A program made the translations under genes and the position numbers. From contig CACNUI010000005.1 in assembly GCA_902623545.1 (NCBI GenBank), forward strand, positions 12,622 to 76,621: a stretch of DNA of 64,000 bases. The letters run 5' to 3'. The notes below the pieces were generated by a model. It did no database searches. It worked only from the letters and a program-made list of their open reading frames with translations, and was not told the DNA's origin. Shown here piece after piece: positions 24,872 through 40,517 of this stretch (position 1 is the first letter of the stretch; each line of letters starts with the position of its first letter). The DNA comes from an uncultured Alphaproteobacteria bacterium. Its GTDB lineage: Bacteria; Pseudomonadota; Alphaproteobacteria; HIMB59; GCA-002718135.

Positions 24872-26032
24872 TTAAATTTTAAGTTTATTGAAATAATTTA
24901 ATCTAGCTATAATTTCATCTCTTTCAATATAATACCCTTGTAGATGTCTATTTCCTGAATTTGGGTCAAATTCTGTTCTGCCATGTAATACCCTTCTGTT
25001 GTTAAAGCAAAATATATCTCCAGCTTCTAATCTAAAATCAATTTTAAATTTATTATTTTGTAAAAGTGATGCAAAATATTGATAAGCATCATAAAATCTC
25101 TTCATTTTTTTTGGGTCAACATCAATAGTTCCCATTGCTGCCATGCTAAATCTAACATCATTAAAATCATTTTCTCTTGTAAGTGTAATAATTGGTGAAT
25201 GCAGAACTCTAATTGATTTTTGAGTATAATCTGTGTCTTTGAATTTCACGTATGTTCTTGTTAGTAATTTATAAACATCCTTTTCATTTTTTTTTAAGTA
25301 ATTAGCTACAGCAAATCCATCGACAACAGAAGAATTACCACCCGATGCATTATTGACTAGACAATGCAAAAATTGATATCCTGGAGCATACTCAAAATAT
25401 GGTAAATCTGTATGATTCCTAAGCGCTTGAGCTGTATAAGCTGTATTATTTGGTTTTGGTATATTTATTACCTCGAAAGGAGTTCCAAAAAAAGTTTCTC
25501 TATGGTGACTAATTCTATTTAGTACCCTAAAACCAGATTTTTTTTTAGTAGGTGAATTTTTTACAATTGCAAAACCATATGAGTGAAGAAGTTCTAGCCA
25601 TTTTTTTAAATGTTTATCATTTTTAATAATTTTATCATGATTTAAAATAATCTTGCTAAAGTTTTTTTTTAGATTACCATTCCAAAATTTATATGGTGAT
25701 TTATATTTCTGTTTATTTATTTCGGTATAGCAGTGATCCCTTAACCACTTTAATCTAAAATTACTTTTATGATTGCCCTCACTCCAATCAATATTTAAAT
25801 TATTTTTCTTTATATTAATTTTTTTTGGAAATATATTTTTACTTACATTCAAAATATTAAATACTCTCATATTAGCTGTAGGATGTATTGCAGTTGGACA
25901 ATTATCTCTTAACCATAAAAAATGAAATTTACTTTTAAAATTATCATTCCAACTAATACTTAAATAATCTTTTTTCTTTTCAATTTTTTTTACAGTATAT
26001 TTATTGCTCATGCTAAAATATTTATATCTCAA
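24872..26032 (-). CDS. Fe(II)/2-oxoglutarate dioxygenase of the gamma-butyrobetaine hydroxylase / trimethyllysine hydroxylase / TmpA type
   Basis: 386 aa. Two N-terminal W-LRD-C repeats (FLWLRDNC, LKWLRDHC). HTDLPYFEYAPGYQFLHCL...GGNSSVVDGF and FNNRRVLHGR align with my recollection of BBOX1. Confidence 0.8.
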   Translation of the reverse strand: MRYKYFSMSNKYTVKKIEKKKDYLSISWNDNFKSKFHFLWLRDNCPTAIHPTANMRVFNILNVSKNIFPKKINIKKNNLNIDWSEGNHKSNFRLKWLRDHCYTEINKQKYKSPYKFWNGNLKKNFSKIILNHDKIIKNDKHLKKWLELLHSYGFAIVKNSPTKKKSGFRVLNRISHHRETFFGTPFEVINIPKPNNTAYTAQALRNHTDLPYFEYAPGYQFLHCLVNNASGGNSSVVDGFAVANYLKKNEKDVYKLLTRTYVKFKDTDYTQKSIRVLHSPIITLTRENDFNDVRFSMAAMGTIDVDPKKMKRFYDAYQYFASLLQNNKFKIDFRLEAGDIFCFNNRRVLHGRTEFDPNSGNRHLQGYYIERDEIIARLNYFNKLKI

Positions 26033-30969: not shown

Positions 30970-31761
30970 TTATTCTTTCCAGTTTGGTTCTCTTTTTTCT
31001 AAAAAAGCTTCAATACCTTCCTTGGAATCATCATGTAACATGTTCTCAGTCATTACCTTTGAAGTAAAAGTATATGCATCTTCTAAATTCATATCTTTTT
31101 GTTTGTAAAAAGCTTCTTTACCAATTTTAATAGTATTAGAAGATTTAGACGATATTTTTTTAGCAATTTGAAATACATTTTCTTTTAAACTATCTTCTTC
31201 AAAGACATCATTTATTAAACCAATCCTTAATGCTTTATTTGCATCTATAAGATCCCCAGTAAGAAGCATTTCCATTGCTTGCTTTCTACCTACAGTTCTT
31301 GATAATGGAACCATTGGTGTAGAACAAAATAATCCAATATTTACACCAGGAGTTGCATATTTTGATCTGCTACTTGAGTAAGCTAAATCACAGCTAGAAA
31401 TTAACTGACAGCCTGCTGCAGTGGCGATACCATCAACCATAGCTATAACTGGTTTATTATTTTTATTAATCTTCAGCATAAGTTCAGAGCACATTTGAAA
31501 TATTTTTTTAAAATAGCTTTCACCTTTGTCATTTCGCAATCTTTGTAAATTTAAATCTTTTAAATTATGTCCTGCACAAAAAATATTACCTTTTGATGAC
31601 AAAATAATTACTTTTACATCATTATCTTTATCAGCAATGTCTAGTGCAGATGTTAATTCATTGATCATGTCTTCGCTTAAAGTATTTTGGTTTTTCTGGT
31701 CATTAAGAATAATATTAAAAATATTATTATTTTTTTCGGTTAATATTAGATTGAAATTCAT
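30970..31761 (-). CDS. Enoyl-CoA hydratase/isomerase (crotonase) family, ECHDC3-like
   Basis: 263 aa. FCAGHNLKDL and VDGIATAAGCQL oxyanion-hole segments. Confidence 0.8.
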   Translation of the reverse strand: MNFNLILTEKNNNIFNIILNDQKNQNTLSEDMINELTSALDIADKDNDVKVIILSSKGNIFCAGHNLKDLNLQRLRNDKGESYFKKIFQMCSELMLKINKNNKPVIAMVDGIATAAGCQLISSCDLAYSSSRSKYATPGVNIGLFCSTPMVPLSRTVGRKQAMEMLLTGDLIDANKALRIGLINDVFEEDSLKENVFQIAKKISSKSSNTIKIGKEAFYKQKDMNLEDAYTFTSKVMTENMLHDDSKEGIEAFLEKREPNWKE

Positions 31762-32208
31762 TTAATTAATTTGAATTTCAACATCTTTGGATAGCGAATT
31801 AGCGATAAAACAATATTTATGTGATCTTTCTTTCATCTTTTTCATTTCTTCATCAGAAATAGTAAAATTATCTTCAAATATTATATCTGGATTTAGTTCT
31901 ATTTTATTTACGTACATTCTTCCTTCTGCATTTTTTCCTAAATACGAAATTGCTTTATCTTTATAATTAACAACGGGCCATTTCATTTTTGCGGCTAAAG
32001 CTAAAAATGTCATCATAAAACAACTACTTACAGCAGCAGCTAGTTTTTGTTCTGGATTAATATTAGTTTCACTTCCTCCATAGTCTGGAGATGATCCTGC
32101 ATCAATAGATACATTTTCATTAAGTATTACTATGTGATCAGTTAAGTATTTACCAAATTCAAGTTTTTTATCTCCTAATTCCCACTTTAATTCGATCGAA
32201 TGACTCAT
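31762..32208 (-). CDS. osmC: OsmC/Ohr-family peroxiredoxin-like protein
   Basis: I trimmed the listed ORF 31762..32256 to the ATG at 32208 (MSHSIELKW...). The longer form would overlap the upstream gene. AAAVSSCFMMTF and KYCFIANSL provide the two conserved Cys contexts. Confidence 0.75.
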   Translation of the reverse strand: MSHSIELKWELGDKKLEFGKYLTDHIVILNENVSIDAGSSPDYGGSETNINPEQKLAAAVSSCFMMTFLALAAKMKWPVVNYKDKAISYLGKNAEGRMYVNKIELNPDIIFEDNFTISDEEMKKMKERSHKYCFIANSLSKDVEIQIN

Positions 32209-32209
32209 T

Positions 32210-33331
32210 TTAAGAATAATTAAAAGGAAGAGAACACACTTTACCTTTTCTCTCAATATTGTCTGGCGTTAATACTATGACATCCTGCCCATCATTCCAA
32301 TAATCTCTATCAACCATTGATAGCCCAATATTAGTTTTTAAAAATGGTGAATAAATACCAGAGGTGATATTACCAATTTGAAATCTATTTTTTGAGTATA
32401 CAGGAAAAGGTATTGAGCATGAAGGAGTAGGCGACCCATCAAAAGTAATTCCTTTTATTTTTTTTTCTATTCCATTTTTTAATATTTTTTTTAGTGCATT
32501 CTTTCCAATGAATTCATGAGATAAATTGCTACAATAATTATTAAATCCACATTCAAGTGGATTATTTTCTAAAGTAAATTCATTACCATAGGATAGTAAA
32601 CCACCTTCTATTCTATCAATTAAATTTGGACATCCAGGTGAAATATTAAAATCTTTTCCTGCTTCCCAAATAGTTTCCCAAAGTTTTTTTCCTAAACTAA
32701 AACCTTTAAGATAAATCTCAAAACCATCTTGTTTGCTATACCCTGATCTTGCAATTATCTGCTTTGTTCCTTCAAATTCAAAAAAAGAAAAATGAAAGAA
32801 TTTTAATTTTTTTATTTTTTCGCCAAATATTGAAGACATTAATTCTTCAGATTTCGGACCTTGAATTGCTAGGGGATAAACATCTGGTTCAATAATATCA
32901 ACTTTAAAATTTCTCCCTACTGCCAATCCTTTTGCCCAAAGAAGAACATCTGAATCTGCAACTGATAGCCAATATTTATTTTCACTTAATCTTAAAAGAA
33001 CAGGATCATTTATCATTCCTGCATTTTCATCAATCATTGGATAATAGTAACACTTACCAATAGGCATATTTTTTATCGACCTTGGAGACATGAGTTGTAT
33101 TAATTTTGTAGCATCTTCTCCTATTATTTGAACCTGTCGTTGACATGAAACATCCCAAATTTGAGTATTTTTAGATAAGTGCCAATAATCTTCTTCTACT
33201 GTTGCTTTATATGATTTTGGAAGAAGCATATGATTAACTACAGTAAAACCACTTACACCAGCCTCAATTACTTTCTCGGTATAGGGAGTCCTTCTAATAC
33301 GTCTAGACATGTTTAATCCTGAATTACTCAT
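32210..33331 (-). CDS. dmdA: GcvT-family tetrahydrofolate-dependent demethylase, DMSP demethylase (DmdA)-like
   Basis: About 373 aa from the ATG at 33331. ATGs at 33361 and 33310 are alternatives. SRRIRRTPYT...VVNHMLLP...EDYWHL...IWDVSCQRQV...ARSGYSKQDGFEIY...IEGGLLSYGNE resembles my recollection of Pelagibacter DmdA. Confidence 0.6.
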   Translation of the reverse strand: MSNSGLNMSRRIRRTPYTEKVIEAGVSGFTVVNHMLLPKSYKATVEEDYWHLSKNTQIWDVSCQRQVQIIGEDATKLIQLMSPRSIKNMPIGKCYYYPMIDENAGMINDPVLLRLSENKYWLSVADSDVLLWAKGLAVGRNFKVDIIEPDVYPLAIQGPKSEELMSSIFGEKIKKLKFFHFSFFEFEGTKQIIARSGYSKQDGFEIYLKGFSLGKKLWETIWEAGKDFNISPGCPNLIDRIEGGLLSYGNEFTLENNPLECGFNNYCSNLSHEFIGKNALKKILKNGIEKKIKGITFDGSPTPSCSIPFPVYSKNRFQIGNITSGIYSPFLKTNIGLSMVDRDYWNDGQDVIVLTPDNIERKGKVCSLPFNYS

Positions 33332-33332
33332 T

Positions 33333-33668
33333 TTATTTAGACCACCATATTGAGTATCCATTCGGAGAAATAATCAAAGGTATGTGGTATTTTTTGAGAG
33401 GATCTTTCATTTTAAATTTAACACTTATTGAATTAATTATTTCACTAGTATTTCTAAAATATTTACCAGAATTAATTATCATTTCATAATCACTTTCACA
33501 ATCCTCTTTCGTTAATTCAAGTTCTTTAAGCATTCTTCCAGAACCATCTGTTTTATCTTCTAGAAATATAACCTTGTTATTACTATTTACTTTATAAATA
33601 ACAATTTCTACATCACTTGCATGCGTACCATCGATTGCGTTTAATAAATGTGTAGAAAAAATTGCCAT
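33333..33668 (-). CDS. Transthyretin-fold protein (5-hydroxyisourate hydrolase family) with a non-canonical C-terminus
   Basis: 111 aa. N-terminal STHLLN, GSGRM and YHIPLIISPNGYS match the HIUase His/Arg/His positions, but the protein ends IWWSK instead of YRGS. Confidence 0.65.
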   Translation of the reverse strand: MAIFSTHLLNAIDGTHASDVEIVIYKVNSNNKVIFLEDKTDGSGRMLKELELTKEDCESDYEMIINSGKYFRNTSEIINSISVKFKMKDPLKKYHIPLIISPNGYSIWWSK

Positions 33669-33671
33669 AAT

Positions 33672-35414
33672 TTACTCTATTGATGCTTTATCTCTTTTAT
33701 CACTAACTGCAGCAACTATTGGACTAATAACACCTTTAGCCTTAACATTAACACATGCAGTTTTACCACTTTCTAATGCTCTTTTTAAAGCAGGACCTAA
33801 ATCTTCTCTTTTAGTCACTAATTCTCCATATCCCCCAAAACCTTCAAAAATTGAATGAAATGGAATATCTCTAAAATCAGTTGCAAAGTGTTTCCCACTT
33901 TCAAATAACCTTTCTTGTTGTTGAGAAATACAGTCAAGACCTCCGTTGTTATCTATAACTACAACAATGGGTCTTTTTTCTTGGAATGCAGCCTCAATTG
34001 ATAATCCTCCAGATAAAAATGCACCATCTCCACTTATTAAAACTACATTAGATTTAGGATTAAGATTTTTTGCTGATACTGCAAAAGGAACTCCAACACC
34101 TAACATACTAAATGTTCCAGGATGTAATATTCCCCCAAGTTTTTTTCCTTTTGATCCAGCAATATTAATTGCAATCTCAGACCAGAAATGTGTGTTACCG
34201 CCATCAATAACTAACCAGTCATTTTCAGTTAATACTTCTTGAACATCTAAAGCTAACTGAAGAGGATGAATTTTTCCACCACTTTTTTTGGTCTCTTCAG
34301 TTTCTTTATATAAGTCATCTAATGTTTTATTGATCCAATTTTTTTTCTCTGTTTTATTCTTTTCAAACCATTCATTGTTTAATTTCCATTTACTGTTTTT
34401 CTTTAACTCTGTGAGTTTATCCAAAAAAACTCCAGGATCACAAAGTAAGTTAATATCTGCAGCTCTATTTAATTCTATTTCTTCATGTGATCCATTAATA
34501 CAAACAAGTTTAGTACTTTTTGGAAAAAGTGGAGGATTACCAAAATTCATTTGATTATCAAGACGTGCACCAATCATAAGAACCAAATCTGATTCACTGA
34601 GAGCCATTTTTGATGGAGGATATTGATGTATATCTGCCAGACCCATGTATGTATCTGCTTCTTCGCCTAAAAGCTTTTGATGGTATGGTATATTAAATAT
34701 TGGAATATTTAATTCAAAACCAGCTTGCTCTAATTTTTTTTCTGCATTAGACCACCAAACACCATGCCCTCCAATAAAAACAGGTTTTTGTGCACTAATT
34801 GCCAGATCAAATATTTCATTTAAATTCTCAGGATCTGGCCAAGCTTTTGCTAAAGGTTTTTTTTGATGAGTAAACGGTCTTTCTTCTAAACCTGCATCAT
34901 CTGCAAATGATGAAAACATTATATCTACTGGTACACTTAAATGTACTGCACCAGGATAACCATTTGTTGCAATTCTATATGCTTTATCTACGAACTCTCT
35001 TATTCTGTTGCCATCTGTTATACTTGCACTGTATTTTGTTAACGGTGCTGCAATAGATACATCATCTATTTCCTTAAAACCGCCTGCTCCTTGTCTTTTT
35101 AAGCTACTTGATCCAGTTATAAAAATAACAGGTGATCTTTCACCCCATGCTTCCATCATTGAGGGTACTGCATTTGCAAAACCCTCTGGCCCGACTATAC
35201 AAACGGATGGTTTTCTTGATATTCTAGTATGACCATCAGCTAAATGACCAGCAATTTGTTCATGAGGACAATTAATTACATTAATTTGACACTCCATAAA
35301 TCCTTCAAGTGCTGGATTACAAAAACCTCCAGAAAGTGTAAAGACATTATCAATACCTTTATCCTTGAGAGCTCTTGCAACTAATGCCCCACCTCTAATC
35401 TTTTTATCTCCCAT
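33672..35414 (-). CDS. Thiamine-diphosphate-dependent enzyme (acetolactate synthase / oxalyl-CoA decarboxylase / 2-hydroxyacyl-CoA lyase superfamily)
   Basis: 580 aa. PHEQIAGHLADGHTR (catalytic Glu), ITGSSS...FKEIDD and the GDGAF...NNGG ThDP-binding motif. Confidence 0.8.
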   Translation of the reverse strand: MGDKKIRGGALVARALKDKGIDNVFTLSGGFCNPALEGFMECQINVINCPHEQIAGHLADGHTRISRKPSVCIVGPEGFANAVPSMMEAWGERSPVIFITGSSSLKRQGAGGFKEIDDVSIAAPLTKYSASITDGNRIREFVDKAYRIATNGYPGAVHLSVPVDIMFSSFADDAGLEERPFTHQKKPLAKAWPDPENLNEIFDLAISAQKPVFIGGHGVWWSNAEKKLEQAGFELNIPIFNIPYHQKLLGEEADTYMGLADIHQYPPSKMALSESDLVLMIGARLDNQMNFGNPPLFPKSTKLVCINGSHEEIELNRAADINLLCDPGVFLDKLTELKKNSKWKLNNEWFEKNKTEKKNWINKTLDDLYKETEETKKSGGKIHPLQLALDVQEVLTENDWLVIDGGNTHFWSEIAINIAGSKGKKLGGILHPGTFSMLGVGVPFAVSAKNLNPKSNVVLISGDGAFLSGGLSIEAAFQEKRPIVVVIDNNGGLDCISQQQERLFESGKHFATDFRDIPFHSIFEGFGGYGELVTKREDLGPALKRALESGKTACVNVKAKGVISPIVAAVSDKRDKASIE

Positions 35415-35415
35415 C

Positions 35416-36579
35416 TTAATACTTTATATCCTTAAAAATTTTCTCTGCTATAATTTTTTTATCAACTTCATTTATATCGGTTAATCCTACTAAGCCAAGA
35501 TTTGTACTTAACTCCTCTTTAATTAAGTTGATAATTCTTCGAAGACCTCTTGCACCATCCGCACCAATGGCGTACATTAAAGGTCTGCCAAACATAACAA
35601 AATCAGCTCCTAAAGCTAATGCACGTAAAATATCACTACCACTTCTAATACCACTATCAAAAAGTATTGGAAAATCATCTCCTAAAGCTTTTCGAATTAA
35701 TGGTAAGGCATTAATAGAAGCAGTAGCACTGTCTAATTGCCTTCCTCCATGATTAGATACTTGAATTGCATCAGCACCAGCCTCTTTAATTTTTAAGGCA
35801 TCTTCAGAATTCATTACTCCTTTAATTATTAATTTTCCCTTCCATACATTTCGAATTCTTTTTAGAGTATTCCAATCAGTTGATCCTCTACTTTCTTTTC
35901 GTCTAAAAACTTGATCACCGCTTTTAGAAGTAACGTAATTCATTGGTTGCGGAGCTCCTTTTAATAAAGTCGTTAAACTCCATTGAGGATGTAGTGCAAA
36001 ATCTAAAAATTGTTTTGGACCTATTTTAAATGGATAGCCAAAACCATTTCTGTCATCTCTTGCTCTCCTTGAAAGAATAGGTACATCAACAGTAAGAATT
36101 AAAACTTTGTATCCAATATTTTCTGCTCTTTTTAATAATTCCATAATAAATTCTTCACTTTGAAAAATATATATTTGCATCCACGAATGACCTTCTGAAA
36201 AAGTAAACATATCTTCAAGTGTTGTACTAGATGCCATTGAAACACATGTTGGAACATTATTATAAACACTCTCTTTTGCTATCATTTTATCTGCTTCAGG
36301 CCATGAAAGATTTGTCATTCCCATTGGAGCAAACCCAAATGGATAATCAAATTGAAAATCAAATATTTTTTTACTTAAATTTCTATTCTCAACATTTCTG
36401 AAAACCTTAGGCTCAAGTCTAATTTGATCTAATGCTGTACTATTAATTTCAGCAAGTTTATCATCTCCTGATGCCCCATCAATAAAATCAAAGACTAGTT
36501 TTGGTAATCTTTTTTTAGATAACCTTATAGCATCATCTATAGTATGGATCTTAGTACTAGGTTTAATGACATCATTCAT
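35416..36579 (-). CDS. FMN-dependent alpha-hydroxy acid oxidase/dehydrogenase (LldD / glycolate oxidase / lactate monooxygenase family)
   Basis: 387 aa. LTVDVPILSRRARD, SNHGGRQLD and FDSGIRSGSD motifs. Confidence 0.85.
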   Translation of the reverse strand: MNDVIKPSTKIHTIDDAIRLSKKRLPKLVFDFIDGASGDDKLAEINSTALDQIRLEPKVFRNVENRNLSKKIFDFQFDYPFGFAPMGMTNLSWPEADKMIAKESVYNNVPTCVSMASSTTLEDMFTFSEGHSWMQIYIFQSEEFIMELLKRAENIGYKVLILTVDVPILSRRARDDRNGFGYPFKIGPKQFLDFALHPQWSLTTLLKGAPQPMNYVTSKSGDQVFRRKESRGSTDWNTLKRIRNVWKGKLIIKGVMNSEDALKIKEAGADAIQVSNHGGRQLDSATASINALPLIRKALGDDFPILFDSGIRSGSDILRALALGADFVMFGRPLMYAIGADGARGLRRIINLIKEELSTNLGLVGLTDINEVDKKIIAEKIFKDIKY

Positions 36580-36627: not shown

Positions 36628-37857
36628 CTAGTTTTTTGACGTACCCTTCCAAGGTATTGGGCTAGATGGAATATCTGTTTTTATACCTCTTTGTATTTCA
36701 CCTTTCTCATCATACATTGGTAAAGTACAGATTTCACCTTTTTGCAGGCTACCATCATCACATCTAACATCTATTATTGTGCCTGGTCCAAATTCTGCAT
36801 GATACATATGAACTATAGCAACACCACAAACTTGAAATGGCGACCATGTGCTTGAAGTTACAATACCCACTTTTTTATTATTAATAGAGATTTCAGAGTC
36901 AACTAATGCAAAACTATTTTCCACTCTCATTCCCCAAGTTAAACAATCCTTACTAGCGTTGAGTAAATATTCTCTACCAATGAAATCACCTTTATTAAAA
37001 TCTATAAATTTTCCTAACCCAACTGCAAATGGAGATCTATCTTTTGTAAAATCTCTACCTGCAGATAAAAGACCTGCCTCTATTCTTCTACATCTAAATC
37101 CAGGTGAAGCTGTAAGGATCATTCCCATATCTTCACCCTTACTGAGTATTAAGTCCCCAATTTTTTTTGAGTCATTTTGTGGTCTTAAATAAATTTCCCA
37201 ACCTAGTTCATTGGTAAACCCTGTTCTGCTTATAATTACTTTTTCTGAAGCAATTGAAGTTTCAATCCAATCAAAATAATTAAAACTATCTTTTATTGGT
37301 TGATCAACGAGTGTTTCTAAGAGCTTAAGAGATTTTGGACCTTGAACTTGGCTTACCCATACATTTGGATCTTTTATTTCGACATTTAAGTTTTTTGAAT
37401 GAGCTTTGTACCAACTATATAAATGCCCATCACCTTGAGCAAACCAAAATTTGTTTTTTTCTAATCTTAATAATAATCCATCTGAAATCATTCCTCCATC
37501 ATGATAGCAAGCAAATTGATAAGAACATCTTCCAATTTTAACTTTTGAAATATCTCTAGGAAAAATTTGTTGAAGTAAATTTTCAGCATCTAAACCAGAT
37601 ATTTCGTATGGATGCTCACCTGTATGACGTAAAATTATTTCTTGTCTAGCCTTCCAATACATTTCATCTGCTGTAGCATGAGATAGTTTTTCGAGTGTAA
37701 ATCGACCATCAGCATAATTAGTATATTCAGGACTAAATGGTAATTCTTGATAAGTTAGTGGATGTATTTTCATTGGTCTTGCTAAATCAAGCGATCTACC
37801 AATCTCCTTAACAACAGGCTTAACAACAAATCTGTAATTTTTAACTGAGTCTTCCAT
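36628..37857 (-). CDS. GcvT-family aminomethyltransferase-fold protein (stand-alone demethylase, substrate unknown)
   Basis: 409 aa. GRCSYQFACYHDGGMISDGLLLRL, SRTGFTNELGWEIY and RIEAGLLSAGRDF follow the GcvT fold pattern. The N-terminus differs from the DmdA-like paralogue. Confidence 0.7.
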   Translation of the reverse strand: MEDSVKNYRFVVKPVVKEIGRSLDLARPMKIHPLTYQELPFSPEYTNYADGRFTLEKLSHATADEMYWKARQEIILRHTGEHPYEISGLDAENLLQQIFPRDISKVKIGRCSYQFACYHDGGMISDGLLLRLEKNKFWFAQGDGHLYSWYKAHSKNLNVEIKDPNVWVSQVQGPKSLKLLETLVDQPIKDSFNYFDWIETSIASEKVIISRTGFTNELGWEIYLRPQNDSKKIGDLILSKGEDMGMILTASPGFRCRRIEAGLLSAGRDFTKDRSPFAVGLGKFIDFNKGDFIGREYLLNASKDCLTWGMRVENSFALVDSEISINNKKVGIVTSSTWSPFQVCGVAIVHMYHAEFGPGTIIDVRCDDGSLQKGEICTLPMYDEKGEIQRGIKTDIPSSPIPWKGTSKN

Positions 37858-37902: not shown

Positions 37903-38826
37903 TTAAAATAATTTGCTTAAAGCTTCAATATGTCGTGGTTTAACTTCACAACATCCACCAATTAAAGTAGCTCCTTCTTTTATAGAATTAGATACAAAGT
38001 TTTTATATTCTTTTAATCCATATTCTTGATCTCTTGTTCCAAGTAATTCTACTGGATCTTCATACTCAGCTTGTCCTTCAAAACCCTCCGTATTGAATGT
38101 TTTTTGATCACTAGTTGGTAATCTTTTAAATAAGTTCATTTTATATCCAAACGGGAGTTTTTGTTTTTTGAGAATTGGAATACTCAACTCAACAATTTCG
38201 GGAGATACACAAGCAGAGATTATACCACAACAATTATACTGATTAATAATTTTAAAAAGATCTTCAAGTGCTTCTCCTGAAGGTAATTTACCATCAAAAC
38301 GTAAATGAGCGCCAACTAGTATTTGTTTATTAAACTCTTTAGATGCTTCTAAAGCGATTTGTATTTCCTTAATAGAACTTAAAACATCTAAATAAAATAT
38401 ATCAACGTAGTCATTTAATATTTTTGCAACCTCAAAGAAATATTTAAACATAGTTTCTTCTGTCTCAAATTGCATAGGAGAATAAGTATTACTCTGATTG
38501 GGCAAAGAACCCGCAACTATAGTTTTCTTATTACTTTCTAATTTTGCCTTCTGCGCAATCTCACCTGCAGATCTAATTCCAAATTCTAATGAGTCTAATA
38601 AATTATATCTTTTTAATAACCGTCTTCTAACACTAAAATTTGCTGTAACAATTAGTTCAGATCCTGCATTAATAAAATCTTTGTGCATTTTTAGTACCAT
38701 ATGATGTAAATTTTTATCTATAAGCGCTTTTGCAGACCATAAATCACCATAAGTATCTAAACCCATTTCCATTAAAGTTTGGCCAGAACCACCATCAAAT
38801 AGGTATTTGTTATTATTTAAAAACAT
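37903..38826 (-). CDS. Homocysteine S-methyltransferase domain protein (betaine- or S-methylmethionine-homocysteine methyltransferase candidate)
   Basis: I trimmed the listed ORF to the ATG at 38826 (MFLNNNKYLFDGGSGQTL) because a GC-rich hairpin occupies the longer 5-prime extension. GGCCEVKPRHIEAL is the zinc-binding CC motif. Confidence 0.75.
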   Translation of the reverse strand: MFLNNNKYLFDGGSGQTLMEMGLDTYGDLWSAKALIDKNLHHMVLKMHKDFINAGSELIVTANFSVRRRLLKRYNLLDSLEFGIRSAGEIAQKAKLESNKKTIVAGSLPNQSNTYSPMQFETEETMFKYFFEVAKILNDYVDIFYLDVLSSIKEIQIALEASKEFNKQILVGAHLRFDGKLPSGEALEDLFKIINQYNCCGIISACVSPEIVELSIPILKKQKLPFGYKMNLFKRLPTSDQKTFNTEGFEGQAEYEDPVELLGTRDQEYGLKEYKNFVSNSIKEGATLIGGCCEVKPRHIEALSKLF

Positions 38827-38888: not shown

Positions 38889-40517
38889 TTATGCAAACCA
38901 CCAACGTTCAGAAATTTTGTTACCATCACTTTCCCAGTTTCCAGCAACATCATCTTTGTGAGCAAGTTTTTTAGAACCAGCTCCAACATATTGGTTAAAT
39001 GCATAAACAATAGCACCACCATCATAGTTACAAAGTGCTTGAGCTTCCCAGTACATTGATTTTCTTTTTTCAAAATCAAGTTCTGATCTTGCAGATCTAA
39101 CTAATTCGTTGAAACGCTTAGTTGAATCTGTTTGCACAATATTACCCCAAGCAGCTTCATTCCACTCAGTGTCATCGGTAAACGCAGCAGACCACATCAT
39201 ATCTTCTGTAGGTCTTCCACCCCAAGAACTCATACTGAATCCTTTGGTGTTCCATACGTTACTCCAGTATCCATCTTCAGGTTCTTTCTTAACTCGAAGA
39301 TCAATACCGCATTCTTGAGCAGAAGCAGCAATTAAGTTAGTTGCATCTGTACAACCTGCATAAGGTACTTCAGAAGTACTAATCTCAATTGGACCACTCA
39401 CACCTGATTTCTTCCAGTGATATGCAGCTTTATCAGCATCAAACTCTCTTTGCTCTAAAGCGCTATTATGGAATGGGTGAGCTGTTGCAATGGGATGATC
39501 ATTACCTAATGAACCATATCCAAGCATGATCTTATCAACAATTTCTTGTCTTTTAATTGCAAACTTCATTGCCATACGAACATCAAAGTTATCAAATGGT
39601 GGAACATTTAATCTCATTGGAGCTGTATAGTGAGCATAACCAGATGCTGCAGTAATTTCTACATTAGGATCTCTAGTTAATAAATTTGCAGTTCTTAGAT
39701 CAACACCGTTCATCCAATCAATTTCACCGTTTAATAATGCTGCTTGTCTTGTAGCAGGATCATTGATTCCGATTACTTCAACTGAATCGAAGTGCGCAAC
39801 GCTATCACCTTTGAAATAATTTGGATTTCTTTTTCCAAACTTTGCACCAACACCAGGATTGAATTCATCCATAATATATGGACCAGTTCCAATTGTAGAT
39901 TGTGCATCTACAACTCCGTCTTTAGTTGGTTTAATCATTATGTGATAGTCAGTTGTAATCGCTGGCCAGTCCGCATTAGCACCTTTAAGTTTAAATATAA
40001 CTCTATTAGCACCATCAGCTGAGATCGTATCAATTTGCGATAATAAACCTCCTGCTGCTGAAGCAGTGTCTGGATTCATATGATACTGATAGTTAAGTAC
40101 AACATCTTCAGCAGTCATTGATTTGCCATTGTGGAATTCAACACCTTTTCGAAGATTATATACCCAAGTTTGAGCATCATCTGACTCAATTGACTCAGCA
40201 AGTTCAGGTACAATACTGTGATCAGAATCAACAACTGTTAAACAGTTTTGAAATGACCATGCTGTAGCTTGCATGAACGAGCTTTGATAAGTTGCAGGAT
40301 CAAGTGTATCTGTAGTATCAGCTGCACCATTACCCCATCTAAAATGTCCGCCTTTTTTTGGAGTAGCAGCAACAGCTTTATCAGCTAGTGATAGAGCTAT
40401 TGGTAGAGTTACACCAGTTGCAAGAACAGACATCATGAACTGTCTTCTATCAATTAGCCCTTTAGTGAGCTTTGAAGACTGCTCTTTAATATATTTGTCT
40501 ATTTTCTTATCTTTCAT
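38889..40517 (-). CDS. ABC transporter substrate-binding protein, family 5 (peptide/nickel/opine type), Tat-like signal
   Basis: 542 aa. N-terminal DRRQFMMSVLATGVTLPIALSLADKAVA, followed by a typical SBP_bac_5 body. Preceded by an AGGGAGGA SD. Confidence 0.8.
   Translation of the reverse strand: MKDKKIDKYIKEQSSKLTKGLIDRRQFMMSVLATGVTLPIALSLADKAVAATPKKGGHFRWGNGAADTTDTLDPATYQSSFMQATAWSFQNCLTVVDSDHSIVPELAESIESDDAQTWVYNLRKGVEFHNGKSMTAEDVVLNYQYHMNPDTASAAGGLLSQIDTISADGANRVIFKLKGANADWPAITTDYHIMIKPTKDGVVDAQSTIGTGPYIMDEFNPGVGAKFGKRNPNYFKGDSVAHFDSVEVIGINDPATRQAALLNGEIDWMNGVDLRTANLLTRDPNVEITAASGYAHYTAPMRLNVPPFDNFDVRMAMKFAIKRQEIVDKIMLGYGSLGNDHPIATAHPFHNSALEQREFDADKAAYHWKKSGVSGPIEISTSEVPYAGCTDATNLIAASAQECGIDLRVKKEPEDGYWSNVWNTKGFSMSSWGGRPTEDMMWSAAFTDDTEWNEAAWGNIVQTDSTKRFNELVRSARSELDFEKRKSMYWEAQALCNYDGGAIVYAFNQYVGAGSKKLAHKDDVAGNWESDGNKISERWWFA

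What the first reader, a model, noticed from the sequence alone, without database searches (positions are those of the whole stretch)
33333..33668. Transthyretin/HIU-hydrolase-fold protein with IWWSK instead of the YRGS C-terminus, in a non-purine operon
The protein keeps the positions I associate with the HIUase active site: N-terminal S-T-H, G-R, and Y-H-I-P near the end. The family-defining C-terminal tetrapeptide Y-R-G-S is replaced by I-W-W-S-K. No uricase, OHCU decarboxylase or allantoinase gene is visible anywhere in the 64 kb. The gene is wedged between a ThDP enzyme and a DmdA-like demethylase with 1-3 nt spacers. This suggests a neofunctionalised member of the fold.
Basis: partly seen in the sequence, partly recalled or inferred. 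Interest (0 to 1): 0.55.

Follow-up and report, generated by a model that had tools for sequence, protein, structure and literature searches.

The report
Repurposed transthyretin-like partner of thiamine enzyme
This small gene is labelled a uric-acid-pathway enzyme but belongs to a separate, undescribed branch of that family that always follows one particular thiamine-dependent enzyme gene, usually beside a second copy of the marine DMSP demethylase gene, so it probably marks an unstudied step in ocean organosulfur metabolism.

Summary
ORF 33333-33668 (-) encodes a 111-aa transthyretin/HIUase-fold protein ending WWSK instead of YRGS. It is not an ordinary 5-hydroxyisourate hydrolase. It scores below the NCBIfam HIUase cut-off. 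The same genome has a canonical YRGS HIUase inside a purine-catabolism cluster on another contig. Two cultured Pelagibacter strains and one complete alphaproteobacterial genome carry only the W-type protein and no OHCU decarboxylase.

W-type proteins have invariant Trp in place of Tyr, mostly Trp in place of Arg, and Ser in place of Gly. They split from YRGS proteins on one branch (SH-aLRT 99-100).

In every locus with enough sequence (131/131), the gene sits within 4 nt after one highly conserved HACL/oxalyl-CoA-decarboxylase-like ThDP enzyme gene. Usually an FMN 2-hydroxyacid dehydrogenase gene lies upstream and a DmdA paralogue downstream. Where DmdA is missing, TauD/PhyH dioxygenase, TauE sulfite-exporter and Tct transporter genes take its place.

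The His-Arg-His core is kept, so I read it as a catalytic partner of the ThDP enzyme acting on an organosulfur 2-hydroxy/2-oxo acid. The substrate is unknown. This scan has found the same thing before on other DNA, with concordant follow-ups. I found no paper describing it.

The parts
33333..33668 (-). W-type transthyretin-like protein (111 aa, P0001), ending WWSK. It keeps His7, Arg45, His95 and Pro97 of the HIUase site.
   Evidence: AF2 model pLDDT is 92.8, with TM 0.84 to E. coli YedX.
33672..35414 (-). ThDP enzyme (580 aa), the invariable upstream partner. It is HACL/oxalyl-CoA-decarboxylase/ALS-like and reaches no curated NCBIfam cut-off.
   Evidence: best PDB match is OXC/HACS at 195 bits. 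It is 81-86% identical in Pelagibacteraceae and 64-76% in metagenome lineages of 30-63% GC. It is adjacent in 131/131 loci.
35416..36579 (-). FMN-dependent 2-hydroxyacid dehydrogenase/oxidase (387 aa), 1 nt upstream of the ThDP gene.
   Evidence: PF01070 scores 396 bits. The nearest PDB entries are L-lactate oxidase and (S)-mandelate dehydrogenase. It is present in 69/69 and 38/42 loci.
32210..33331 (-). DmdA-family THF-dependent demethylase. It is the cassette paralogue, not the orthologue of the characterised Pelagibacter DmdA.
   Evidence: NF009133 scores 531.7 bits against a cut-off of 410. It scores 400 bits to PDB 3TFH. In Pelagibacter HIMB1695 the cassette copy scores 396.8 bits to 3TFH and the other copy 688.8 bits. 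G000 has a second copy at C1:141192.
36628..37857 (-). Second GcvT-fold protein (409 aa), upstream context. It is conserved in the own genus and in most Pelagibacteraceae loci.
37903..38826 (-). Homocysteine S-methyltransferase-family protein, context in the own genus.
38889..40517 (-). Family-5 solute-binding protein of an ABC importer, context.
30970..32208 (-). OsmC-like protein (31762-32208) and enoyl-CoA hydratase (30970-31761). These downstream genes were seen only in the own genus.

Best explanation
SHOWN. P0001 belongs to a distinct 'W-type' branch of the HIUase/transthyretin family and is not the cell's 5-hydroxyisourate hydrolase. It is cytoplasmic, because the catalytic-site His is residue 7 and leaves no room for a signal peptide. 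Its gene is translationally coupled (gaps of -4 to +4 nt) to the 3' end of one specific, very conserved HACL/oxalyl-CoA-decarboxylase-like ThDP enzyme gene. The ThDP-TLP pair is the constant unit. FMN 2-hydroxyacid dehydrogenase and a DmdA paralogue are its usual companions. In other lineages the companions are TauD/PhyH dioxygenases, a TauE sulfite exporter, Tct/TRAP carboxylate transporters and a family-III CoA-transferase.

INFERRED. The protein is still an enzyme. It keeps the His-Arg-His-Pro core that in HIUase activates water and holds the alpha-hydroxy-carbonyl part of the substrate. The residues that read the ureide ring (Asp50, Tyr116, Arg117, Gly118 and the terminal Ser119, zebrafish numbering) have changed to variable, Trp, Trp, Ser and variable. 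This gives a more hydrophobic, cation-friendly pocket.

The most likely role is to speed a hydrolytic or ring-opening/tautomerising step on a labile intermediate made or used by the ThDP enzyme. HIUase does the same kind of job for the unstable product of urate oxidase. The module would run: 2-hydroxy acid, then FMN dehydrogenase gives the 2-oxo acid, then ThDP-dependent C-C (or C-S) cleavage. It would serve catabolism of an organosulfur or onium osmolyte-type acid. The exact substrate is not established. DMSHB/MTHB-type and sulfolactate-type acids are candidates only.
For: Not an HIUase:
- TIGR02962 scores 69.1 bits against a cut-off of 87.45.
- A canonical YRGS paralogue, P0122, scores 114.5 bits. 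It sits next to xdhABC, PuuE, allantoicase, ureidoglycolate lyase and OHCU decarboxylase on contig C6.
- G583, G584 and G248 have the W-type as their only PF00576 protein and no PF09349 hit.

Distinct clade:
- 161 W-type and 35 YRGS rows split on one branch, with SH-aLRT 100, or 99 without the tail columns.
- About 80 full-length representatives at 50% clustering are W-type.

Partnership with the ThDP enzyme:
- ThDP lies directly upstream in 76/76 and 55/55 loci.
- Within the genus, 63 genomes have both genes and 35 have neither. All 3 ThDP-only cases are genes cut by a contig end.
- ORF junctions are -4 to +4 nt.
- The pair persists where DmdA is absent.

Probably catalytic:
- H7, G14, G44, H95 and P97 are 100% conserved, R45 98% and S110 95%.
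- Nine of the ten HIUase site residues are replaced in the non-enzymatic transthyretin (review PMC13751858).
- dN/dS is 0.11-0.27.

Organosulfur/onium context:
- DmdA paralogue, GcvT-like and BHMT-like genes lie in the window.
- MTTB, Peptidase_S51 and LysR genes recur upstream elsewhere.
- TauD, TauE, PhyH and a CoA-transferase occur in loci without DmdA.
Against: - No activity, ligand or complex has been measured. The substrate is a guess.
- Conserved channel residues could serve binding rather than catalysis.
- TLP identity across lineages (31-45%) is far lower than that of the ThDP enzyme (64-76%), so the two are not equally constrained.
- No natural ThDP-TLP fusion was found (a weak test).
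- The C-terminal residues of the AF2 model are of low confidence (about 60), and the tetramer could not be modelled. The geometry of the Trp pair is therefore not known.
- The canonical comparison set is mostly alphaproteobacterial.
Confidence: 0.55

Rival explanations
1. It is a non-catalytic small subunit of the ThDP enzyme (regulatory, stabilising or lid-forming). This would be analogous to the small subunit encoded just after the acetolactate synthase large-subunit gene.
For: The gene order is strict and the genes are translationally coupled to an ALS-superfamily catalytic gene. The two genes co-occur almost perfectly. The ThDP enzyme is extremely conserved, which fits a multi-protein assembly.
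Against: The invariant residues are the HIUase channel/active-site residues H7, R45, H95 and P97, plus W108. That is not obviously an interaction surface. No fused form was found. The fold is unrelated to the ACT-domain small subunits.
Confidence: 0.2
2. It is a transthyretin-like binding protein. The four Trp side chains that two subunits would bring to each half-channel form an aromatic cage holding the sulfonium/ammonium head group of the pathway's substrate or product. The protein would buffer or channel that compound.
For: W108 is 100% and W109 82% conserved, replacing Tyr and Arg. The neighbours handle methylated onium compounds: the DmdA paralogue, GcvT-like, BHMT-like and MTTB genes. 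The family has precedent for an enzyme-to-carrier switch.
Against: The same WWS tail occurs in loci without any demethylase, beside TauD/TauE sulfonate-type genes. Vertebrate transthyretin lost the catalytic residues, which are kept here. A cytoplasmic carrier for a small polar osmolyte has no obvious purpose.
Confidence: 0.12
3. It is still a 5-hydroxyisourate hydrolase, a second isozyme with a variant tail.
For: It has the same fold and keeps His, Arg, His and Pro. Public sources name it so.
Against: It scores below the equivalog cut-off. Five of the ten active-site residues are changed, including Tyr116, whose substitution alone removes about 99% of activity in zebrafish HIUase. It is never found in a purine locus, and it is present in genomes without OHCU decarboxylase. 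The canonical enzyme is present where the pathway exists.
Confidence: 0.05
4. It serves the DmdA paralogue, for instance by acting on a pterin/folate species that resembles a purine.
For: It lies directly upstream of the DmdA-family gene, 1 nt apart here, and that gene is adjacent in 127 of 138 loci. Pterins resemble the purine-derived HIU; this is my own inference.
Against: The ThDP-TLP pair persists in 11 of 62 metagenome loci, and in G248, with no adjacent THF-dependent gene. G248's only DmdA-like gene is 1 Mb away.
Confidence: 0.05

Closest known systems
5-hydroxyisourate hydrolase (HiuH/YedX, PucM, HpxT; TIGR02962; PDB 2IGL, 2G2N, 2H0E, 8UW4)
   Same: It has the same fold (TM 0.81-0.84) and a similar length. 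It shares the conserved His, Gly-Arg and Tyr-His-x-Pro blocks and the SPxxYS strand.
   Different: The YRGS tail is replaced by W-W-S-x and the chain often extends beyond it. Asp50 is not kept, the residue equivalent to the conserved Pro is His16, and an aromatic at position 103 becomes Asn/His. It scores below the equivalog cut-off. It has no purine-pathway context.
Vertebrate transthyretin
   Same: Both are offshoots of HIUase that lost the YRGS tail.
   Different: Transthyretin replaced nine of the ten site residues and became a carrier. The W-type protein keeps His, Arg, His and Pro, is bacterial and cytoplasmic, and arose independently.
Mandelate-type module: FMN (S)-mandelate dehydrogenase MdlB plus ThDP benzoylformate decarboxylase MdlC (established knowledge)
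   Same: An FMN 2-hydroxyacid dehydrogenase gene abuts a ThDP enzyme gene. The FMN enzyme's second-best PDB relative is (S)-mandelate dehydrogenase.
   Different: The ThDP enzyme here is nearest to oxalyl-CoA decarboxylase/2-hydroxyacyl-CoA lyase. The module has an obligatory transthyretin-like third member and, usually, a demethylase.
DMSP demethylation pathway (DmdA, then DmdB/C/D); Pelagibacter ubique DmdA, PDB 3TFH
   Same: The adjacent gene passes the DmdA NCBIfam cut-off. An enoyl-CoA hydratase gene follows in this genus.
   Different: The cassette copy is a paralogue. In one Pelagibacter genome it scores 397 bits to 3TFH, against 689 bits for the other copy. Its substrate is untested. 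Reviews of DMSP cycling do not mention the trio.
Acetolactate synthase large and small subunit gene pair (established knowledge)
   Same: A small gene follows directly after an ALS-superfamily catalytic gene.
   Different: The small protein has a transthyretin fold with a conserved catalytic-type site, not an ACT domain.

Membership tests
Pfam PF00576 HIUase/transthyretin superfamily | Profile match above the gathering score, and the transthyretin beta-sandwich fold | tested here: met
   Scores 69.4 bits against a cut-off of 25.3. The AF2 model has pLDDT 92.8, and Foldseek gives TM 0.84 to 2IGL/2G2N.
5-hydroxyisourate hydrolase (TIGR02962 equivalog) | Score above the curated equivalog cut-off | tested here: not met
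   Scores 69.1 bits against a cut-off of 87.45. The genome's other paralogue scores 114.5.
5-hydroxyisourate hydrolase | C-terminal signature tetrapeptide Y-R-G-S | tested here: not met
   The tail is W-W-S-K. Across 161 W-type proteins the positions are W 100%, W 82%, S 95% and variable. In 35 canonical proteins Y, R, G and S are each 100%.
5-hydroxyisourate hydrolase | Ten conserved channel residues (His12, Asp50, Arg52, His103, Pro105, Leu107, Tyr116, Arg117, Gly118, Ser119; PMC13751858) | tested here: not met
   Five are kept: H7, R45, H95, P97, and I99 standing for Leu. Five are changed.
5-hydroxyisourate hydrolase | Occurrence with the urate pathway (OHCU decarboxylase, allantoin-forming genes) | tested here: not met
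   G583, G584 and G248 have the W-type protein but no PF09349 hit. In G000 and G079 OHCU decarboxylase lies beside the YRGS paralogue. No W-type locus shows purine genes.
5-hydroxyisourate hydrolase | Hydrolysis of 5-hydroxyisourate to OHCU; homotetramer | not testable with these tools
   This needs an enzyme assay and a multimer structure.
Vertebrate-type transthyretin (hormone carrier) | Loss of the catalytic His/Arg/His and an open thyroxine channel | tested here: not met
   His7, Arg45 and His95 are retained. A bulky Trp stands at the Tyr116 position.
W-type TLP clade (defined here) | Start M-A-x-x-S/T-S/T-H, G-T-H-A loop, tail SPxxYSxW(W)S, and a gene directly after the ThDP gene | tested here: met

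The most novel reading that the evidence does not exclude
The ThDP enzyme and the W-type transthyretin-like protein together form a new two-protein lyase/hydrolase system. It would cleave an abundant but so far overlooked marine organosulfur 2-hydroxy/2-oxo acid. One candidate is DMSHB/MTHB, the DMSP-biosynthesis intermediates, demethylated by the DmdA paralogue. Sulfolactate-type acids are candidates in the TauE-linked loci. The Trp pair would form a cation-pi or hydrophobic pocket, and the retained His-Arg-His core would do the chemistry. If so, part of what metagenomic surveys count as dmdA would belong to a different pathway.
Probability: 0.15. Interest if true: 0.85.

Novelty: new variant of a known kind. 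Interest (0 to 1): 0.62.

Why it matters
SAR11-type bacteria are among the most abundant organisms in the ocean, and dmdA counts are used to estimate how much DMSP sulfur is kept from becoming DMS. The cassette shows three things.

- Many of these genomes carry two genes that pass the DmdA model. Only one of them is the orthologue of the enzyme that was characterised.
- The other copy is locked to three genes of unknown role: an FMN dehydrogenase, a ThDP enzyme and this protein.
- A protein named 'hydroxyisourate hydrolase' in databases is misannotated across a whole clade.

Identifying the substrate would add a pathway to marine sulfur/osmolyte cycling. It would also give a second, independent example, after transthyretin, of the HIUase scaffold being repurposed.

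Tried and rejected
I took context from the search for related loci, the genome search and tblastn instead.
- A search for fused forms among longer proteins found only one 225-aa PF00576+PF01467 protein on a 1.7-kb contig. No ThDP-TLP fusion turned up. This is a weak test.
- Random samples of 400 class-level and 400 phylum-level genomes gave only one further W-type genome (G248) and none, respectively. The clade is patchy and is mostly seen in aquatic metagenomes and single-cell genomes.
- Literature searches combining dmdA or DMSP with transthyretin, hydroxyisourate or acetolactate synthase, and for the SAR11_0243-0247 locus tags, found nothing relevant.
- The ESM Atlas only repeated the name 'hydroxyisourate hydrolase'.
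- I considered folding a read-through ThDP-TLP chain, since the two genes share a frame and are separated by TAA plus one codon. I rejected this because a 2-residue linker and the absence of PAE output would make it uninformative.
- The idea that the 146-aa ORF after the TLP in low-GC loci is the OsmC-like protein of this window was rejected (BLASTP E = 0.23).
- The ungapped dN/dS values against Pelagibacter orthologues are misaligned and were discarded.

Full report
**Observation.** ORF 33333..33668 on the minus strand encodes a 111-aa protein, P0001. It has S-T-H at residues 5-7, G-R at 44-45 and Y-H-I-P at 94-97, and its C-terminus is ...SPNGYSIWWSK. It matches Pfam PF00576 at 69.4 bits (cut-off 25.3). 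It reaches only 69.1 bits on the NCBIfam equivalog for hydroxyisourate hydrolase, TIGR02962, whose cut-off is 87.45.

An AlphaFold2 model has mean pLDDT 92.8; only the last few residues are uncertain. It superposes on E. coli YedX/HiuH and other HIUases at TM 0.81-0.84.

The gene lies 3 nt after the stop of a ThDP enzyme gene and 1 nt before the probable start of a DmdA-family gene, the ATG at 33331. The longer ORF that starts at 33361 overlaps the TLP and precedes the part that aligns to the DmdA model. The window is about 28% G+C. Public titles of its close relatives read 'uncultured Alphaproteobacteria bacterium' single-cell genomes, and one reads 'Pelagibacteraceae bacterium'.

**It is not the cell's HIUase.** The genome holds two PF00576 genes. 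The second, P0122 on contig C6, ends ...YSTYRGS and scores 114.5 bits on TIGR02962. It sits among xdhA, xdhB, xdhC, allantoinase PuuE, allantoicase, ureidoglycolate lyase and an OHCU decarboxylase. The purine pathway therefore exists in this genome and has its own canonical enzyme.

Conversely, three genomes have the W-type protein as their only PF00576 member and no OHCU decarboxylase. They are the cultured Pelagibacter strains HIMB1695 and HIMB1709 (G583, G584) and a 99%-complete single-contig alphaproteobacterium (G248).

**A real clade.** All near-length homologues down to 50% identity end in WWS plus one residue. A profile search of 1.84 billion cluster representatives found about 80 further full-length members. 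They share the start M-A-x-x-S/T-S/T-H, a G-T-H-A loop and the tail SP(N/H)xYSxW(W)S, sometimes followed by up to ten more residues.

In a tree of 161 W-type and 35 YRGS proteins, the two kinds fall on either side of one branch. SH-aLRT is 100, and 99 when the tail columns are removed. The YRGS sample is mostly alphaproteobacterial, and the alignment has only about 115 columns.

Site by site, both kinds share H7, G14, G44, R45, Y61, E62, Y70, R84, Y94, H95, P97, P102, Y105 and S106. The W-type differs as follows:
- position 16: His 89% (Pro in canonical proteins)
- position 41: Asp 89% (Asn)
- position 43: variable (Asp 94%)
- position 103: Asn or His (an aromatic)
- position 108: Trp 100% (Tyr)
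- position 109: Trp 82% (Arg)
- position 110: Ser 95% (Gly)
- position 111: variable, non-terminal (the terminal Ser)

A 2026 review lists ten channel residues for HIUase: His12, Asp50, Arg52, His103, Pro105, Leu107, Tyr116, Arg117, Gly118 and Ser119. It reports that Y116T alone removes about 99% of activity (PMC13751858). Five of the ten are kept here and five are changed. Within the genus dN/dS is 0.11-0.27.

**Context.** In the 80 loci fetched from species-representative genomes (own genus and Pelagibacteraceae), the ThDP gene is directly upstream in 76/76 loci with room. The DmdA-family gene is directly downstream in 76/76, and the FMN dehydrogenase gene lies before the ThDP gene in 69/69.

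In 81 loci of more distant W-type proteins (80 metagenome contigs of 30-63% G+C, marine and other, plus G248), the counts are 55/55, 51/62 and 38/42. Gene junctions between ThDP and TLP are -4 to +4 nt wherever I read them.

In the genus, 63 species have both ThDP and TLP and 35 have neither. The 3 'ThDP only' cases are genes cut by a contig end. Of the 2 'TLP only' cases, one is at a contig end.

The ThDP enzyme is strikingly conserved. It is 81-86% identical in Pelagibacteraceae and 64-76% in the distant lineages, against 31-45% for the TLP. It reaches no curated NCBIfam cut-off. Its nearest solved relatives are oxalyl-CoA decarboxylases and 2-hydroxyacyl-CoA lyases/synthases (195 bits), followed by benzaldehyde lyase and acetolactate synthases. 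The FMN enzyme is nearest to L-lactate oxidase and (S)-mandelate dehydrogenase.

**The neighbouring 'DmdA' is a paralogue.** The window's copy passes the DmdA model (531.7 bits against 410) and scores 400 bits to PDB 3TFH, the characterised P. ubique enzyme. G000, G079, G583 and G584 each have two copies above the cut-off. In HIMB1695 the non-cassette copy scores 688.8 bits to 3TFH and the cassette copy 396.8 bits. The enzyme whose activity is known is therefore the orthologue of the other copy. A 2026 review of DMSP cycling describes dmdA clades but mentions no such paralogue or trio.

**Where DmdA is absent.** Low-GC loci (L164, L166, L171, L172, L176, L180, L181, L198), L222 and G248 keep the ThDP-TLP pair. 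In the three I annotated (L181, L222, G248), its neighbours are TauD-family and PhyH-family dioxygenases, a TauE/SafE sulfite exporter, TctABC or TRAP carboxylate transporters, a family-III CoA-transferase (formyl-CoA-transferase-like) and an alpha/beta hydrolase. The WWS tail is the same in both kinds of locus.

Upstream of DmdA-linked cassettes in other lineages, a divergent LysR regulator (7 of 46 ORFs sampled), an MTTB-family methyltransferase (6) and a Peptidase_S51 (6) recur. The Peptidase_S51 gene is also seen in Pelagibacter HIMB1695. Downstream genes are not conserved.

**Interpretation.** The constant unit is ThDP enzyme plus TLP. The His-Arg-His-Pro core is retained; transthyretin discarded it when it became a carrier. 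That argues the channel still does chemistry, or at least binds a carbonyl/carboxylate-bearing ligand. The residues that recognise the ureide ring have been exchanged for two Trp and a Ser.

HIUase turns a cyclic alpha-hydroxy amide into an alpha-hydroxy acid and exists to speed the decay of an unstable intermediate. By analogy, I propose that the W-type protein processes a labile alpha-hydroxy-carbonyl intermediate linked to the ThDP reaction. The module would run from a 2-hydroxy acid to a 2-oxo acid to ThDP-dependent cleavage. The neighbours point to organosulfur or onium acids, either sulfonium/thioether acids with the DmdA paralogue or sulfonates with TauD/TauE. The substrate is not identified. 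DMSHB/MTHB and sulfolactate are candidates from chemistry alone. The rival readings are given with their odds in the Rival explanations section.

**Distribution.** The clade is patchy. In even samples of 400 genomes, one other alphaproteobacterium (class level) and none (phylum level) carried it. By contrast, 210 places in species-representative genomes and 400 metagenome contigs matched. It occurs in 65 of 103 species of this genus but in none of the 7 other genera of the family, nor in the sister family.

**Earlier work of this scan.** The same protein type was flagged on several other genomes, and follow-ups reached matching conclusions: a partner of a thiamine enzyme, beside a DmdA-type gene, with its job unknown. 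One follow-up called the DmdA copy a paralogue, and I tested and confirmed that here. Another called it a genuine DMSP demethylase, which my comparison with 3TFH qualifies. I found no paper that describes the clade or the cassette.

Noticed in passing
G000 contig C6, locus L003:7062-16767: This roughly 1.4-Mb streamlined genome has a complete purine-to-glyoxylate cluster. It comprises ureidoglycolate lyase, allantoicase, PuuE allantoinase, canonical HIUase (YRGS), xdhA, xdhB, xdhC and a deaminase-like gene, with OHCU decarboxylase at C6:50843-51313.
   Followed up: partly
G000:C1:141192-142259 (L231); window 32210-33331: Two genes pass the DmdA NCBIfam cut-off in this genome, as also in G079, G583 and G584. 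The cassette copy is not the orthologue of the characterised Pelagibacter DmdA (3TFH). Metagenomic dmdA counts may therefore merge two paralogues.
   Followed up: yes
L181:2915-3355, L171:2978-3397, L172:2955-3374, L198:3529-3945 and similar: In low-GC loci without DmdA, a conserved 138-146-aa ORF follows the TLP directly. It has no Pfam or NCBIfam hit and is not related to the OsmC-like protein of the window.
   Followed up: partly
L188:1464-3053, L195:4480-6030, L199:4254-5804, L203:232-1782; L107:6409-7092: MTTB-family methyltransferase and Peptidase_S51 genes, plus a divergent LysR regulator, recur just upstream of the cassette in several unrelated lineages. Peptidase_S51 is also present in Pelagibacter HIMB1695.
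   Followed up: partly
window 33331-33361: The ORF tool's DmdA start (ATG 33361) overlaps the TLP by 29 nt. The ATG at 33331, 1 nt after the TLP stop, fits the DmdA model's alignment better.
   Followed up: yes
window 24872-26032: A gamma-butyrobetaine-hydroxylase/TmpA-like dioxygenase scores below both equivalog cut-offs (323 against 415 bits, and 288 against 400 bits). It lies beside an aldehyde dehydrogenase, a class-V aminotransferase and an EamA transporter. Its substrate is unclear.
   Followed up: no
window 33669-33674: The ThDP and TLP genes are in the same reading frame, separated only by TAA and one codon.
   Followed up: no
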